Shown here piece after piece: positions 21,380 through 42,905 of a stretch of 64,000 nt of DNA. The notes under the pieces are model-generated. The model searched no databases. It worked only from the letters and a program-made list of their open reading frames with translations, and was not told where the DNA came from. The number at the start of each line of letters is the position of its first letter. The stretch's first letter is position 1. This stretch comes from Salmo salar (taxonomy: Eukaryota), in contig NC_059455.1 in the NCBI RefSeq assembly GCF_905237065.1, positions 34,160,034-34,224,033 of the forward strand, given 5' to 3'. Both the position numbers and the translations under genes were made by a program.

Positions 21380-21502
21380 TGGTTATTCTCTCCAGGAGAG
21401 GAAGTAGAGCTGGCCCAGTCCATCGCCACACACCAGTTCACTGGAGCAGTGTGGGTTCACCTCCAAGACCAGAACAGGACCCGCACACACAAACACACCC
21501 AC
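21380..21502 (-). CDS. TEP1: TEP1 terminal coding exon, with the stop codon at 21380..21382.
   Basis: The acceptor is 'tgctcag|gtgggt'. Translation is [39 protein letters not shown], against the human C-terminus GLFRCEGSVSCLEPWLGANSTLQLAVGDVQGNVYFLNWE*. Confidence 0.8.
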
Positions 21503-42500: not shown

Positions 42501-42905
42501 GGTTGAAGAGAACAGAGGGGGGAGGGGGGAGGGAGAGGGGAGAGAGAGGGAATGAGGGAAGAGTAGTGAATCCTTCTTTAGGAATTTGTTCTCTGTGCTG
42601 AGGAGTGGAGAGGTGAGGAGGGGGGAGGTAAGACAGGGAGAAGTGAGGGAGGAGGTGGTAGTGGAGAGGAGGGAGGAGGTGGTAGTGGAGAGGAAGGAGG
42701 AGGTGGTGGAGGTGAGCCTGGAGGGCTGGAGAGAGGGGCAGGAGGAGGGCTGGGATACTGGTCCAGAGAAGGCCTGAGGCAGCACAGATGCATGGATCAG
42801 GCATCTGTTCTCCATGCTCTGGCCAAGGTAGTTAGAGTAGAGCCCCCCTGATGCAGCCTGCTGGTCCTGGGCCCCATGAGGCTGGAGCAAAGTCAGCACC
42901 TTCAT
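21380..42905 (-). CDS. TEP1: TEP1 (telomerase/vault-associated protein 1) ortholog. This is the gene span holding ~54 coding exons; individual exons are listed separately with approximate boundaries.
   Basis: Exon translations align collinearly with human TEP1 as recalled from memory. A single LENRCL-type N-terminal repeat is present. The TROVE region reads ...[19 protein letters not shown] / [52 protein letters not shown] / [25 protein letters not shown]. The vWA-like block is [27 protein letters not shown]. The DUF4062 module is [93 protein letters not shown] and the NACHT P-loop [14 protein letters not shown] follow. Next come ...LSDSAFNNQ and about 25 WD40 exons. The terminal exon reads [39 protein letters not shown] against human ...GLFRCEGSVSCLEP...GNVYFLNWE*. 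Confidence 0.85.
21621..21725 (-). CDS. TEP1: TEP1 penultimate WD40 exon.
   Basis: The acceptor is 'cctag|gcacac'. Translation is [35 protein letters not shown], against human HSGSVTALHVLPELLVTASKDRDVKLWERPSMQLL. The donor is 'cag|gtgcat' in phase 0. Confidence 0.8.
23476..23575 (-). CDS. TEP1: TEP1 WD40 exon.
   Basis: The acceptor is 'atattcag|ac'. Translation is (D)[28 protein letters not shown], against human ELLVVTVGLDGATRLWHPLL. The donor is 'cag|gtgaga'. Confidence 0.65.
23654..25131 (-). mobile_element. Tc1-like family B, copy 2, inside a TEP1 intron.
   Basis: It carries the same IRs and transposase pseudo-ORFs (23809..24258, 24347..24736) as copy 1. It fills nearly the whole intron between the exons at 23476..23575 and 25148..25290. 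Confidence 0.8.
25148..25290 (-). CDS. TEP1: TEP1 WD40 exon.
   Basis: Translation is ...[46 protein letters not shown], against human ...VVSVSRDGTLKVWDHQGVELTSIPAHSGPISHCAAAM. The donor is 'cag|gtattg'. The Tc1 family B terminus lies 16 bp downstream at 25131. Confidence 0.65.
27313..27455. repeat. MITE-like long inverted repeat (hairpin) in a TEP1 intron.
   Basis: The arm 'gatctcaattgcttactcctcgcatccgctctcctcatctcctcaaaacccattgga' is near-reverse-complementary to 'tccaatgggttttgacaaggagaggatgcaaggagtatgcaactgagatc'. (CA)n/(GT)n tracts flank it. Confidence 0.4.
30355..31912 (+). mobile_element. Tc1-like family A, full-length copy in a TEP1 intron, flanked by TA.
   Basis: The IRs read 'cagtcgaagtcagaagtttacatacactaagg' and 'ggtgtatgtaaacttccaacttcaactg'. 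TA dinucleotides sit at 30353-54 and 31913-14. Transposase ORFs 30702..30935, 30932..31384 and 31439..31657 carry frameshifts ([22 protein letters not shown]...; DDE tail [15 protein letters not shown]). Confidence 0.85.
31981..32101 (-). CDS. TEP1: TEP1 exon.
   Basis: The acceptor is 'gttccag|atgaag'. Translation is [45 protein letters not shown], against human VSERLRTLPATVPLLLQHILSTLEKEHGPDVLPQALTALEVTRSG. The donor is 'acg|gtgaga'. Confidence 0.65.
32206..32292 (-). CDS. TEP1: TEP1 exon.
   Basis: The acceptor is 'ctgtatag|ctt'. Translation is [31 protein letters not shown], against human MRLLLVKRESGRPLYLRLVTDHLRLFTLYEQ. The donor is 'aag|gtcaga'. Confidence 0.65.
32398..32550 (+). mobile_element. 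tRNA-derived SINE of the salmonid HpaI/SmaI type, located 9 bp from the TEP1 5' splice site.
   Basis: The tRNA-like head is 'ggggtcccatgtggctcagttggtagagcatggtgcttgcaacaccagggttgtgggtttgattaccac'. The tail is 'tgtaagttgctctggataagagcagctgctaaattactaaaatgtaaa'. It is not followed by a normal tRNA 3' end or terminator, so it is a SINE and not a tRNA gene. Confidence 0.7.
32560..32740 (-). CDS. TEP1: TEP1 NACHT-associated exon.
   Basis: Translation is ...[58 protein letters not shown], against human VHLVLSVSSDAGLGETL...ASARARLVREELALYGKRLEESPFNNQ. The donor is 'cag|gttatt', and a SINE begins 9 bp into the intron. Confidence 0.7.
33320..33512 (-). CDS. TEP1: TEP1 NACHT-region exon.
   Basis: Translation is [63 protein letters not shown], against human VSALQAPDGAKVAPLVFFHFSGARPDQGLALTLLRRLCTYLRGQLKEPGALPSTYR. 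The donor is 'aag|gtgagt'. Confidence 0.65.
33641..33834 (-). CDS. TEP1: TEP1 NACHT exon with the Walker A/P-loop.
   Basis: Translation is ...[59 protein letters not shown], against human LSLVTGQSGQGKTAFLASL. The acceptor is 'ctgacag|gaaacgg' and the donor 'atg|gtaaac'. Confidence 0.75.
33917..34041 (-). CDS. TEP1: TEP1 exon preceding NACHT.
   Basis: The acceptor is 'gtctcag|ttaccc'. Translation is [39 protein letters not shown], against human [39 protein letters not shown]. The donor is 'gag|gttaga'. Confidence 0.75.
34749..35035 (-). CDS. TEP1: TEP1 DUF4062 exon, the conserved module immediately N-terminal to the NACHT domain in TEP1/NWD proteins.
   Basis: Translation is [93 protein letters not shown], against human [95 protein letters not shown]. 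The donor is 'tgg|gtaagg'. Confidence 0.8.
35483..35533. repeat. (GT)n microsatellite in a TEP1 intron.
   Basis: The tract is about 25 GT units. Other dinucleotide tracts occur at 38055..38090, 38160..38182 and 39783..39815. Confidence 0.9.
36781..37039 (-). CDS. TEP1: TEP1 vWA-like exon.
   Basis: Translation is (CVCVHSQ)[76 protein letters not shown], against human NRYRQALETAVNLSVKHSLPLLPGRTVLVYLTD. The donor is 'tct|gtaaga'. The acceptor choice is uncertain. Confidence 0.6.
37213..37448 (-). CDS. TEP1: TEP1 exon in the TROVE/vWA linker.
   Basis: Translation is [79 protein letters not shown], against human ...RIPVLYEQLKREKLRVHKARQWKYDGEM. Boundaries are approximate. Confidence 0.55.
37877..37986 (-). 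CDS. TEP1: TEP1 TROVE-domain exon.
   Basis: The acceptor is 'ttttacag|ac'. Translation is (D)[36 protein letters not shown], against human [36 protein letters not shown]. The donor is 'agg|gtgagt'. Confidence 0.75.
38192..38349 (-). CDS. TEP1: TEP1 TROVE-domain exon.
   Basis: The acceptor is 'tgtttcag|gtaccc'. Translation is [52 protein letters not shown], against human YPSNLQLFSRSRLPGPWDSSRAGKRMKLSRPETWERELSLRGNKASVWEELI. The donor is 'g|gtatag'. Confidence 0.75.
38483..38604 (-). CDS. TEP1: TEP1 TROVE-domain exon.
   Basis: The acceptor is 'tttgcag|ttg'. Translation is [40 protein letters not shown](R), against human FTLKKLVQRLHIHKPAQHVQALLGYR. The donor is 'cg|gtactg'. Confidence 0.65.
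39837..39984 (-). CDS. TEP1: TEP1 exon 5.
   Basis: The acceptor is 'cttcag|tgt'. Translation is [46 protein letters not shown], against human [34 protein letters not shown]. The donor is 'aag|gtacgg'. Confidence 0.7.
40130..40560 (+). mobile_element. 3' UTR fragment of the second-subfamily LINE.
   Basis: It ends '...cttggccaggtcgcagttgcaaatgagaacttgttctcaactagcctacctggttaaataaagg' followed by (aaataaa)n. This is the same 3' module as the reverse complement of 3962..4060. Confidence 0.5.
40585..40830. repeat. Minisatellite with a unit of about 58-61 bp and 4-5 copies.
   Basis: The repeating unit is '...catgtcctgtaccttactgagtctgtgtgtgagaatgagagtgagaggagagaga...'. A related single motif 'catgtgcagtaccttaccgagtctgtcac' lies at 40112..40145. 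Confidence 0.8.
40830..41440 (+). mobile_element. LINE RT C-terminal fragment of the second subfamily.
   Basis: The translations ([31 protein letters not shown]... and ORF 41120..41317 [20 protein letters not shown]) parallel the minus-strand LINE C-terminus at 4329..4800 (LDFGDVIYKMASNTLLNKLDAVYHSAICFVT...GRLSFQFSAANDWNELQ). Confidence 0.55.
41513..41680 (-). CDS. TEP1: TEP1 exon 4.
   Basis: The acceptor is 'ccctttag|gttgcag'. Translation is [55 protein letters not shown], against human LYARQQLNVRNVANNILAIAAFLPACRPHLRRYFCAIVQLPSDWIQVAELY. The donor is 'acg|gtgagt'. Confidence 0.7.
41793..41944 (-). CDS. TEP1: TEP1 exon 3.
   Basis: The acceptor is 'cttcaatcag|tac'. Translation is [50 protein letters not shown], against human ALLSLLCSTLVSEVNMNNTSDPTLAAIFEICRELALLEPEFILK. 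The donor is 'aag|gtgtgt'. Confidence 0.65.
42060..42228 (-). CDS. TEP1: TEP1 exon 2, an acidic region.
   Basis: The acceptor is 'aatggtag|gattctgac'. Translation is [56 protein letters not shown]. The donor is 'aag|gtgagg'. Confidence 0.6.
42357..42905 (-). CDS. TEP1: TEP1 first coding exon (putative). ATG is at 42903..42905, with an alternative in-frame ATG at 42945..42947.
   Basis: Translation is [45 protein letters not shown]... then an S/T/L-rich low-complexity stretch and ...[14 protein letters not shown]. The donor 'gtg|gtatat' is non-consensus. 'SMENRCL' matches the human TEP1 N-terminal repeat core 'SLENRCL'. The 3' boundary is uncertain. Confidence 0.45.
42600..42720. repeat. 24-bp purine-rich tandem repeat inside the putative TEP1 first coding exon.
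   Basis: The repeat is 'ggaggaggtggtagtggagaggag' in about 3 units plus degenerate flanks. On the coding (minus) strand it reads [26 protein letters not shown]. Confidence 0.7.

What the first reader, a model, noticed from the sequence alone, without database searches (positions are those of the whole stretch)
21380..42905. Compact, TE-laden TEP1 (TROVE-DUF4062-NACHT-WD40) ortholog spanning about one third of the window
About 54 collinear exons reproduce the full human TEP1 architecture in ~21.5 kb. A single LENRCL-like N-terminal repeat is followed by the TROVE domain, a vWA-like block, the DUF4062 '[14 protein letters not shown]' module, the NACHT P-loop 'GAPGEGKT' and about 25 WD40 exons, ending with the same C-terminal motif, YFLSWRE* against YFLNWE*. 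TEP1 is the shared protein of telomerase and vault particles. A fish ortholog with exon-by-exon conservation offers a clean comparative anchor for the poorly understood DUF4062-NACHT junction.
Basis: partly seen in the sequence, partly recalled or inferred. Interest (0 to 1): 0.6.

Follow-up and report, generated by a model that had tools for sequence, protein, structure and literature searches.

The report
Intact fish TEP1 (vault/telomerase protein) gene
This stretch holds a complete, apparently functional fish copy of TEP1, the large vault- and telomerase-associated protein; it is a correctly recognised but ordinary ortholog of a well-known vertebrate gene.

Summary
On the minus strand, from ATG 42905 to stop TAA 21385-21383, a protein-guided spliced alignment recovers 54 coding exons. 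They give 7,758 nt (2,586 aa) with no stop or frameshift, and 52 GT-AG plus 1 GC-AG introns. Pfam finds TROVE (E=8e-122), DUF5920 (vWA-like), DUF4062, NACHT, a weak APAF1-like helical match and WD40 propellers. Two TEP1-specific families, Beta-prop_TEP1_2nd and Beta-prop_TEP1_C, score far above their cut-offs. The model aligns end to end with proteins named telomerase protein component 1: electric eel 57%, paddlefish 49%, opossum 35%. Of its 53 introns, 45 share position and phase with the opossum TEP1 gene. NWD1/NWD2 is excluded.

There are two short ENxxL motifs, and no Pfam TEP1_N hit. "TE-laden" means two Tc1-like elements, one SINE, a further 396-bp dispersed repeat and a minisatellite, about 3.9 kb, while the median intron is 130 bp.

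DUF4062 is no longer poorly understood. Two 2026 preprints and PDB 11gz show it is a TIR-like NADase. The fish protein keeps the catalytic Glu and three Arg residues, and this is its best-conserved domain. Verdict: a known gene, of low interest.

The parts
21383..42905 (-). TEP1 ortholog, coding span: ATG 42905-42903 to stop TAA 21385-21383. 54 coding exons, CDS 7,758 nt, 2,586 aa.
42357..42905 (-). Exon 1 (549 nt). Start codon conserved with Acnodon MKAVTLIQ. Two ENxxL motifs (42798-42815 and 42579-42596). S/T/P/L-rich low complexity, including a 24-bp x2.6 coding tandem repeat at 42645-42707.
   Evidence: An in-frame stop lies 14 codons upstream of the ATG. The paddlefish-guided run starts later, at 42755.
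42059..42226 (-). Exon 2 (acidic linker; TROVE begins here at 42088)
   Evidence: same boundaries in all 3 runs
41793..41942 (-). Exon 3 (TROVE)
   Evidence: same in all 3 runs
41516..41680 (-). Exon 4 (TROVE)
   Evidence: TROVE E=1.9e-18 for this exon alone; same in all 3 runs.
39837..39974 (-). Exon 5 (TROVE); an alternative donor at 39828 in one run
39665..39736 (-). Exon 6 (TROVE)
38483..38604 (-). Exon 7 (TROVE)
38192..38349 (-). Exon 8 (TROVE)
37877..37986 (-). Exon 9 (TROVE)
37547..37625 (-). Exon 10 (TROVE)
37248..37440 (-). Exon 11 (TROVE)
36791..37022 (-). Exon 12 (end of TROVE at 36923, then linker); boundaries differ in the paddlefish-guided run
36337..36480 (-). Exon 13 (vWA-like / DUF5920); alternative acceptor at 36489
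36092..36166 (-). Exon 14 (DUF5920)
35872..35993 (-). Exon 15 (DUF5920)
35567..35632 (-). Exon 16 (DUF5920); the only GC-AG intron follows it (CAG|GCAAGC)
   Evidence: Intron position and phase are shared with opossum.
35292..35438 (-). Exon 17 (end of DUF5920, then linker)
34746..35037 (-). Exon 18. First exon of the TIR-like NADase (DUF4062/NIR) domain. Carries [14 protein letters not shown] and Arg910, Arg954, Arg976 (human R908, R954, R976). One exon here, two in opossum.
34435..34556 (-). Exon 19. TIR-like domain; catalytic Glu1008 (codon 34517-34515, in TEMEI) equals human E1008.
34143..34256 (-). Exon 20 (TIR-like domain)
33924..34041 (-). Exon 21. Last exon of the TIR-like domain; the PDB 11gz match ends 1 residue before the exon end.
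33641..33829 (-). Exon 22. Linker and start of NACHT; Walker A GAPGEGKT at 33650-33673.
33321..33505 (-). Exon 23 (NACHT)
33043..33184 (-). Exon 24 (NACHT; Walker-B-like LALLVDGAE)
32560..32739 (-). Exon 25 (end of NACHT)
32201..32293 (-). Exon 26 (helical region)
31985..32117 (-). Exon 27 (helical region)
29968..30127 (-). Exon 28 (helical region)
29642..29778 (-). Exon 29 (helical region)
29456..29544 (-). Exon 30 (APAF1_C-like helical region, weak Pfam hit)
29251..29365 (-). Exon 31 (helical region)
28782..29028 (-). Exon 32 (end of helical region, start of WD40 region); alternative acceptor at 29013
28543..28663 (-). Exon 33 (WD40)
28263..28387 (-). Exon 34 (WD40)
28057..28156 (-). Exon 35 (WD40)
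27813..27965 (-). Exon 36 (WD40)
27489..27701 (-). Exon 37 (WD40)
27179..27235 (-). Exon 38 (WD40); donor uncertain (27179 or 27152). The following intron has no opossum counterpart.
26946..27075 (-). Exon 39 (WD40); acceptor uncertain (27075, 27051 or 27033)
26623..26847 (-). Exon 40 (start of the TEP1 second beta-propeller, PF25047)
26335..26492 (-). Exon 41 (PF25047)
25732..25839 (-). Exon 42 (PF25047)
25488..25592 (-). Exon 43 (PF25047)
25148..25277 (-). Exon 44 (PF25047)
23477..23562 (-). Exon 45 (end of PF25047)
23229..23364 (-). Exon 46 (WD40)
23000..23130 (-). Exon 47 (WD40)
22773..22894 (-). Exon 48 (WD40, poorly conserved stretch)
22431..22562 (-). Exon 49 (WD40, poorly conserved stretch)
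22247..22346 (-). Exon 50; alternative donor at 22262
22017..22131 (-). Exon 51
21817..21899 (-). Exon 52
21621..21725 (-). Exon 53 (TEP1 C-terminal beta-propeller, PF25048)
21386..21502 (-). Exon 54 (PF25048; ends ...[10 protein letters not shown], then TAA at 21385-21383)
23646..25137 (-). Tc1/mariner-type element filling intron 44. 42-nt terminal inverted repeats; transposase split over two frames, so decayed.
   Evidence: (HTH_Tnp_Tc3_2 E=8e-23, DDE_3 E=1e-9)
30340..31918 (+). Second Tc1-like element filling most of intron 27. Inverted repeats CAGTCGAAGTCAGAAGTTTACATACAC; transposase fragment on the plus strand.
32395..32550 (+). SINE in intron 25: tRNA-Ala-like head plus UnaL2 LINE 3' tail
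40564..40829 (.). 55-bp x4.7 minisatellite in intron 4. The adjacent 40146-40541 is a dispersed repeat also found elsewhere in the window.

Best explanation
This is the intact ortholog of TEP1 (telomerase protein component 1, or vault protein TEP1) in a teleost genome. The teleost is probably a salmonid or a close relative.

The gene is transcribed from the minus strand as 54 coding exons and encodes a 2,586-aa STAND/NLR-like protein. From N to C the protein contains:
- a low-complexity head with two ENxxL motifs;
- a TROVE domain plus a vWA-like (DUF5920) module;
- a TIR-like NADase domain (DUF4062, also called NIR), encoded by exons 18-21, with catalytic Glu1008 and Arg910, Arg954 and Arg976;
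- a NACHT P-loop ATPase (Walker A GAPGEGKT);
- an APAF1-like helical region;
- about 950 aa of WD40 beta-propellers, ending in the TEP1-specific C-terminal propeller.

What is shown here: the gene structure, the domain content, orthology, the conserved intron positions and the conserved catalytic residues.

What is inferred by homology from the human and mouse protein: the TROVE/vWA ring binds vault RNA (and telomerase RNA) and tethers the protein inside the vault particle. An unknown signal read by the WD40 domains would then drive NACHT oligomerisation. [quoted passage not shown]
For: The motifs and a collinear HSP chain lie on the minus strand only. The spliced model has 54 exons, 2,586 aa and no stops, with 52 GT-AG and 1 GC-AG introns. 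The aligner reproduced opossum TEP1 exactly (2,592 of 2,592 aa, 55 exons). 47 of 54 exons are identical with three guiding references.

Pfam results: TROVE 408 bits, Beta-prop_TEP1_2nd 270 bits (cut-off 89), Beta-prop_TEP1_C 168 bits (cut-off 32), DUF5920 69 bits; DUF4062 and NACHT both above cut-off.

End-to-end blastp matches are to proteins named telomerase protein component 1 or 1-like: Electrophorus 57% over 2,629 aa, Polyodon 49%, Monodelphis 35%.

45 of 53 introns share position and phase with opossum TEP1. Four more lie in a poorly aligned stretch but show the same phase order, 2,2,0,1.

Exons 18-21 match PDB 11gz_A, 'Telomerase protein component 1', at E=7.7e-35 and 2.9e-27. The residues equivalent to human R908, R954, R976 and E1008 are all kept. 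Their roles are described in bioRxiv 10.64898/2026.05.01.722283 and 10.64898/2026.09.04.749371.

The TIR-like domain is the best-conserved large domain: 76% identity to electric eel and 49% to opossum, against 58% and 34% for the whole protein.
Against: - There is no expression or splice-junction data, so 7 exon boundaries remain ambiguous and the UTR exons are unknown.
- No Pfam TEP1_N repeat is detected in the first 239 aa.
- No PARP gene lies next to it in the window, unlike at the opossum locus, so synteny adds no support.
- The vault association, RNA binding and NADase activity of the fish protein are inferred only from human data.
- If the host is a salmonid, a second ohnolog may exist. 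Which copy is the main functional one cannot be told from this window.
Confidence: 0.93

Rival explanations
1. It is another DUF4062-NACHT-WD40 NLR-like gene (NWD1, NWD2 or a fish-specific paralog) rather than TEP1. The TROVE exons would then belong to a separate neighbouring gene.
For: Many of the 8,834 DUF4062 hits carry the domain at their extreme N-terminus and are 1,100-1,800 aa long, so NWD-type architectures are common. The DUF4062 exon alone is 55-62% identical to them.
Against: The TROVE, DUF5920, DUF4062, NACHT and WD exons form one uninterrupted reading frame with phase-compatible introns. The DUF4062 domain sits at about aa 900, as in named TEP1 proteins. The TEP1-specific propeller families PF25047 and PF25048 score far above their cut-offs. 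Intron positions match the opossum TEP1 gene across the TROVE-to-NACHT span.
Confidence: 0.01
2. It is a decaying duplicate, a pseudogene or non-functional ohnolog left by a teleost or salmonid genome duplication, that still looks like TEP1.
For: Two Tc1-like elements and a SINE have inserted into introns. The N-terminal head is poorly conserved, at 18-40% identity. Several exon boundaries are ambiguous.
Against: There is no stop codon or frameshift in 7,758 nt spread over 54 exons, and all 53 introns have canonical GT-AG or GC-AG ends. The catalytic and Walker A residues are intact. The TE insertions are confined to introns, and no exon overlaps a repeat.
Confidence: 0.05
3. The 54-exon model is partly an artefact of protein-guided alignment. 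Some short exons would be forced fits, and the true transcript would differ substantially.
For: The model was built by homology only. Exons 5, 12, 13, 32, 38, 39 and 50 change boundaries with the reference used. Fish intron 38 has no opossum counterpart.
Against: The same aligner reproduces a curated mammalian model exactly. 47 exons are reference-independent. The exon count (54) and exon sizes track the opossum gene's 55 exons closely.
Confidence: 0.1

Closest known systems
Mammalian TEP1 (human TEP1, whose TIR-like domain is PDB 11gz; opossum XP_056665943.1 at locus L001)
   Same: Same domain order: TROVE, vWA-like, DUF4062/TIR-like, NACHT, helical region, WD40. The same TEP1-specific propellers are present and the C-terminus is similar (YFLSWRE against YFLSWE). 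The catalytic Glu and three active-site Arg residues are the same. 45 of 53 intron positions and phases are shared. The exon count is nearly the same, 54 against 55.
   Different: Overall identity is only 34-35%. The gene is 21.5 kb against 50.4 kb in opossum. The first DUF4062 exon is single here but split in opossum. Fish exon 1 corresponds to opossum exons 1+2. There is one extra intron (fish intron 38). No Pfam-detectable TEP1_N repeat is found, only two ENxxL motifs.
Teleost 'telomerase protein component 1-like' models (Electrophorus electricus XP_026882383.2, Trichomycterus XP_062872371.1, Acnodon KAL7832341.1)
   Same: End-to-end alignment at 54-57% identity. The start is the same (MK.[LV]TL[LI]Q in Acnodon). 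The two N-terminal ENxxL motifs are the same, and so is the C-terminal FLSWR motif.
   Different: These are from different orders (Otophysi), so this is a more distant teleost lineage. The closest fragment seen is from Hucho hucho, a salmonid, at 98% over 53 aa.
NWD1 / NWD2 / NPHP3 (other vertebrate DUF4062-NACHT proteins)
   Same: A DUF4062 next to a NACHT ATPase, followed by a helical region and repeats.
   Different: They lack the TROVE and vWA modules and carry DUF4062 at the N-terminus. In the preprint read, only TEP1 showed NADase activity.
Ro60 (TROVE2) and bacterial Rsr
   Same: A TROVE ring plus vWA-like module that binds small non-coding RNAs (from established knowledge of the family).
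   Different: Ro60 is about 540 aa and has no NADase, NACHT or WD40 parts.
Bacterial DUF4062/NIR defence effectors (Swarozyc, Avs-NIR, Vulcan, Vesta, Evangelion)
   Same: A homologous TIR-like NADase domain with the same catalytic glutamate. Bacterial hits to the fish exon are about 50% identical.
   Different: These are prokaryotic anti-phage systems with other sensor domains; none has a TROVE module or a vault context.

Membership tests
TEP1 (telomerase protein component 1) | TROVE domain in the N-terminal third | tested here: met
   PF05731, E=8.4e-122, aa 230-668, profile positions 11-442 of 442
TEP1 (telomerase protein component 1) | vWA-like module (Pfam DUF5920) directly after TROVE | tested here: met
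   PF19334, 69 bits (cut-off 27), aa 714-878
TEP1 (telomerase protein component 1) | Internal DUF4062/NIR TIR-like domain with catalytic Glu (human E1008) and Arg908, Arg954, Arg976 | tested here: met
   PF13271 above cut-off. Match to PDB 11gz_A at E=7.7e-35 and 2.9e-27. All four residues are conserved.
TEP1 (telomerase protein component 1) | NACHT P-loop NTPase with Walker A, following the TIR-like domain | tested here: met
   PF05729, 38.6 bits (cut-off 26.7). GAPGEGKT at aa 1165-1172.
TEP1 (telomerase protein component 1) | TEP1-specific beta-propellers (PF25047 second propeller, PF25048 C-terminal propeller) | tested here: met
   270 bits against cut-off 89, and 168 bits against cut-off 32; both cover the full profile
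TEP1 (telomerase protein component 1) | Best full-length matches are TEP1 orthologs, collinear end to end | tested here: met
   blastp against the fetched representatives, with names. No competing family covers more than the DUF4062-NACHT-WD part.
TEP1 (telomerase protein component 1) | Gene structure shared with mammalian TEP1 (intron positions and phases) | tested here: met
   45 of 53 fish introns coincide with opossum introns
TEP1 (mammalian-type N-terminal repeat array, Pfam TEP1_N) | Several copies of the ~30-aa N-terminal repeat containing LENRCL | tested here: not met
   No Pfam hit in aa 1-239, even at E<=10. Only two short ENxxL motifs are present. Named non-mammalian TEP1 proteins likewise show only 1-3 such motifs. 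I therefore treat the array as a mammalian elaboration and not as a defining feature of the family.
TEP1 (telomerase protein component 1) | Conserved neighbourhood (a PARP gene adjacent to TEP1 in opossum) | tested here: inconclusive
   The opossum locus has a PARP-domain gene 170 bp downstream. The window flanks hold only TEs and C2H2 zinc-finger genes. Only about 21 kb is visible on each side.
TEP1 (telomerase protein component 1) | Physical association with vault particles, vault RNA and telomerase RNA; NADase activity | not testable with these tools
   Needs biochemistry. Known for human TEP1.
NWD1/NWD2 | DUF4062 at the extreme N-terminus, with no TROVE or vWA module | tested here: not met
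   DUF4062 starts at aa ~899, after TROVE and DUF5920, in one continuous reading frame

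The most novel reading that the evidence does not exclude
Teleost TEP1 would be a natural 'minimal-head' version of the protein. The mammalian N-terminal repeat array is reduced to two degenerate ENxxL motifs inside an S/T/P/L-rich segment that is still changing through a 24-bp coding tandem repeat. Meanwhile the TIR-like NADase domain is the most strongly conserved part and is encoded by a compact block of four exons (18-21). If that is right, the NADase function, and not the telomerase-linked N-terminus, is the ancestral constrained core of TEP1. 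Fish would then offer a compact gene for testing vault NADase biology in vivo.
Probability: 0.3. Interest if true: 0.3.

Novelty: already known. Interest (0 to 1): 0.15.

Why it matters
It matters little as a discovery. TEP1 orthologs are already annotated in teleosts, and this locus behaves as expected. Its use is practical. The window now has a well-supported 54-exon model, and a third of it can be labelled with confidence. The model shows that the residues just reported (2026) to make human TEP1 a vault-resident NADase are conserved in fish, and that the TIR-like domain is the best-conserved large domain of the protein. That supports using fish to study the function of the vault NADase.

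Tried and rejected
1. The search for homologous proteins with the DUF4062 exon returned only single-exon fragments of 170 aa or less, so it gave no full-length reference.
The single exon was then used and yielded full-length TEP1 representatives.
3. The TROVE exon alone found no significant match in the PDB sequences.
4. The paddlefish TEP1 locus is not on record. The opossum locus was used for the gene-structure comparison instead.
5. A Pfam search for TEP1_N repeats in the N-terminus found nothing, even at E<=10.
6. The synteny check found no PARP-like or other recognisable neighbour from the TEP1 region. The flanks are TEs and zinc-finger genes.
7. A literature search for fish TEP1 and vault work gave nothing relevant.
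8. An Rfam scan found no vault RNA, RNase P RNA or other structured RNA gene in the window, only SINE/LINE-derived tRNA-like and UnaL2 matches.
9. The readings as NWD1/NWD2, as a pseudogene, and as two fused genes were considered and rejected (see the rival explanations).

Full report
**Observation.**
- YFLSWRE followed by a stop, at 21386-21406;
- GAPGEGKT at 33650-33673;
- [14 protein letters not shown] at 34977-35018;
- MENRCL within the long open segment 42947-42318.

Single exons already gave specific Pfam hits. The exon at 41680-41516 matched TROVE at E=1.9e-18, the FVSSTF exon matched DUF4062 at E=2.9e-12, and two further exons matched WD40.

**Getting a reference.** Searching the 50%-identity representatives with the 97-aa DUF4062 exon gave full-length proteins of 2,500-2,700 aa with the domain at about residue 900. 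Cluster look-up shows what their sources call them. They are named 'telomerase protein component 1' or '1-like' in Electrophorus, Trichomycterus, Polyodon, Elgaria, Rhinatrema, Monodelphis and Branchiostoma. tblastn of the Acnodon protein P0123 against the window gives a collinear HSP chain from 42905 down to 21389. Eighteen references give no significant hit outside 21300-43100 or on the plus strand.

**Gene model.** I wrote a protein-to-genome spliced aligner with GT/GC-AG introns in all three phases. I validated it on the opossum TEP1 locus L001. It reproduced the annotated protein exactly, 2,592 of 2,592 aa in 55 coding exons.

On the window, guided by P0123, it gives the following:
- 54 coding exons;
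- ATG at 42905, the first ATG after an in-frame stop 14 codons upstream;
- stop TAA at 21385-21383;
- a 7,758-nt CDS encoding 2,586 aa, with no internal stop;
- 52 GT-AG introns and one GC-AG intron with a good consensus (CAG|GCAAGC, after exon 16).

Re-running with the electric eel (P0260) and paddlefish (P0127) proteins gave identical boundaries for 47 of the 54 exons. Exons 5, 12, 13, 32, 38, 39 and 50 have alternative boundaries in at least one run, and in the paddlefish-guided run the exon 1 alignment begins later, at 42755.

Exon coordinates, minus strand, 5' to 3':

| Exons | Coordinates |
|---|---|
| 1-6 | 42905-42357, 42226-42059, 41942-41793, 41680-41516, 39974-39837, 39736-39665 |
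| 7-12 | 38604-38483, 38349-38192, 37986-37877, 37625-37547, 37440-37248, 37022-36791 |
| 13-18 | 36480-36337, 36166-36092, 35993-35872, 35632-35567, 35438-35292, 35037-34746 |
| 19-24 | 34556-34435, 34256-34143, 34041-33924, 33829-33641, 33505-33321, 33184-33043 |
| 25-30 | 32739-32560, 32293-32201, 32117-31985, 30127-29968, 29778-29642, 29544-29456 |
| 31-36 | 29365-29251, 29028-28782, 28663-28543, 28387-28263, 28156-28057, 27965-27813 |
| 37-42 | 27701-27489, 27235-27179, 27075-26946, 26847-26623, 26492-26335, 25839-25732 |
| 43-48 | 25592-25488, 25277-25148, 23562-23477, 23364-23229, 23130-23000, 22894-22773 |
| 49-54 | 22562-22431, 22346-22247, 22131-22017, 21899-21817, 21725-21621, 21502-21386 |

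**Domains.** Pfam results on the model, with genomic spans:

| Domain | Residues | Score | Exons / genomic span |
|---|---|---|---|
| TROVE (PF05731) | 230-668 | E=8.4e-122, profile 11-442 of 442 | exons 2-12, 42088-36923 |
| DUF5920, vWA-like (PF19334) | 714-878 | 69 bits, cut-off 27 | exons 13-17 |
| DUF4062 (PF13271) | 902-1010 | 44.5 bits, cut-off 24.7 | exons 18-19 |
| NACHT (PF05729) | 1161-1328 | 38.6 bits, cut-off 26.7 | exons 22-25 |
| APAF1_C-like | ~1543-1645 | weak, E=0.003 | exons 30-32 |
| WD40 region | ~1637-2586 | many WD40 propeller families | exons 32-54 |
| Beta-prop_TEP1_2nd (PF25047) | 1984-2237 | 270 bits, cut-off 89 | exons 40-45 |
| Beta-prop_TEP1_C (PF25048) | 2514-2584 | 168 bits, cut-off 32 | exons 53-54 |

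The first 239 aa have no Pfam hit, even at E<=10. They do contain two short ENxxL motifs, [11 protein letters not shown] at aa 32 and [11 protein letters not shown] at aa 105. Counterparts of both occur in the other teleost TEP1 proteins, and 1-3 such motifs occur in paddlefish, lizard, caecilian and opossum TEP1. So the N-terminal 'repeat' is a motif-level resemblance, and there are two copies, not one.

**Orthology.** In blastp against all the fetched proteins, the model aligns end to end with named TEP1 proteins:
- Electrophorus TEP1-like: 57% over 2,629 aa;
- Acnodon: 56%;
- Trichomycterus: 54%;
- Polyodon TEP1: 49%;
- lizard and caecilian: 38%;
- opossum: 35%;
- amphioxus: 30-32%.

NWD-type proteins, which carry DUF4062 at residue ~7 and are 1,100-1,800 aa long, can only cover the C-terminal two-thirds.

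Gene structure gives independent support. 45 of the 53 fish introns coincide with one of the 54 opossum introns, within 3 alignment columns and in the same phase. Two more are 4-5 columns away in the same phase. Four in the poorly aligned stretch at aa 2368-2484 show the same phase order, 2,2,0,1. The real differences are few:
- fish exon 1 (549 nt) corresponds to opossum exons 1+2 (273+282 nt);
- the first DUF4062 exon is undivided in fish (292 nt) but split in opossum (177+121 nt);
- fish intron 38 has no opossum counterpart.

Synteny adds nothing. Opossum has a PARP-domain gene next to TEP1, whereas the window flanks hold only transposable elements and C2H2 zinc-finger genes.

**Mechanism.** That is no longer so. 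Exons 18-21 match PDB 11gz_A, 'Telomerase protein component 1', at E=7.7e-35 and 2.9e-27. Two 2026 preprints show that DUF4062, a TIR-like domain also called NIR, is an NADase used in bacterial anti-phage defence. [quoted passage not shown] Activity depends on E1008 and is reduced by R908A and R976A; R954 points into the active site.

To compare residues I used an offset of 893 between PDB chain numbering and protein numbering. This offset places Arg, Arg, Arg and Glu exactly at the four published positions. With it, the fish protein keeps all four: Arg910, Arg954, Arg976 and Glu1008 in TEMEI, codon 34517-34515. The Walker A motif GAPGEGKT is intact. The structural match to the domain spans aa 899-1111, which is almost exactly exons 18-21 (aa 897-1112).

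Per-domain identity shows the TIR-like domain is the best-conserved large domain. It is 76% identical to electric eel and 49% to opossum. TROVE is 69% and 43%, and the whole protein 58% and 34%.

By homology, the protein most likely works as proposed for human TEP1. It is a vault-resident STAND protein. Its TROVE/vWA ring holds vault RNA. Its WD40 propellers keep the NACHT module off until an unknown signal allows oligomerisation. Oligomerisation then switches on the NADase (discussion read). The RNA-binding and vault roles come from my knowledge of the mammalian literature. None of this was tested for the fish protein.

**'Compact, TE-laden'.** The coding span is 21,523 bp, against 50.4 kb in opossum. 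The median intron is 130 bp and only four introns exceed 1 kb. Repeats found in the introns are:

| Intron | Coordinates | Element |
|---|---|---|
| 44 | 23646-25137 | Tc1/mariner element with 42-nt inverted repeats and a frame-shifted transposase |
| 27 | 30340-31918 | Tc1-like element whose inverted repeats read CAGTCGAAGTCAGAAGTTTACATACAC |
| 25 | 32395-32550 | 156-bp SINE: tRNA-Ala-like head plus UnaL2 tail |
| 4 | 40564-40829 and 40146-40541 | 55-bp minisatellite and a dispersed repeat |

About 3.9 kb of the span recurs elsewhere in the window, and no exon overlaps a repeat. 'Compact' is fair. 'TE-laden' is moderate.

**Source.** The closest fragment with a species name is from Hucho hucho, a salmonid, at 98% identity over 53 aa.

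**Verdict.** This is an intact ortholog of a known gene of a kind already annotated in teleosts. It is ordinary, and useful mainly as a solid annotation. It also shows that the newly described NADase site of TEP1 is conserved in fish.

Noticed in passing
window 23646-25137 (-) and 16698-17853 (-): Two copies of the same Tc1/mariner family. Their transposase ORFs are nearly identical in sequence ([29 protein letters not shown]...). One sits in TEP1 intron 44 and one about 4 kb downstream of the gene. Both ORFs are interrupted.
   Followed up: partly
window 30340-31918; also 34-775, 18238-18957, 49435-50279, 57648-58692: Several copies of a second Tc1-like family, with inverted repeats ending ...GAAGTTTACATACAC and transposase fragments such as '[16 protein letters not shown]'. 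The window is rich in Tc1 elements.
   Followed up: partly
window 32395-32550 (+), 51126-51201 (-), 52882-53081 (-), 55231-55284 (+): tRNA-Ala-like heads (ARAGORN and Rfam tRNA) lie next to Rfam UnaL2 LINE 3' elements. These are SINE copies, not tRNA genes. The UnaL2 tail at 55231-55284 follows a 288-aa ORF (54274-55137), which may be a LINE 3' end, but that ORF has no Pfam hit.
   Followed up: partly
window 10830-11999 (-) and 6533-7519 (-): Two closely related C2H2 zinc-finger coding blocks share long identical stretches (e.g. LELVMVKEEELDQTTTLAGPDQFVMDESDGQLWTSVDPGRDTDP). This is a local duplication of a zinc-finger gene downstream of TEP1. The second copy looks degraded.
   Followed up: partly
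window 44127-45606 (+): A divergently oriented C2H2 zinc-finger gene lies about 1.2 kb upstream of the TEP1 start. Its N-terminal exon (FQTKLSSVMDVLAKAAVAEISKMFDDGFAVLRLEMCRRENEIESLKRQL) has no Pfam match. It may share a bidirectional promoter region with TEP1.
   Followed up: no
window 4332-5657 (-) and 829-2134 (+): Reverse-transcriptase ORFs (Pfam RVT_1) from non-LTR retrotransposons.
   Followed up: partly
window 42645-42707: A 24-bp x2.6 perfect-ish tandem repeat lies inside TEP1 coding exon 1 and encodes the STTTSS(F/L)L repeats. It is a possible source of length polymorphism in the N-terminal head.
   Followed up: no
L001 51603-52430 (opossum): The opossum TEP1 locus has a gene with WWE, WGR, PARP_reg and PARP domains, tail-to-tail and 170 bp from the end of TEP1. 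No counterpart is visible in the fish window.
   Followed up: partly
window 61396-61971 (+): A 192-aa open segment with no Pfam hit and an acidic, serine-rich end (...EADSELEGSDSEDESG). It may be an exon of an unidentified gene.
   Followed up: no
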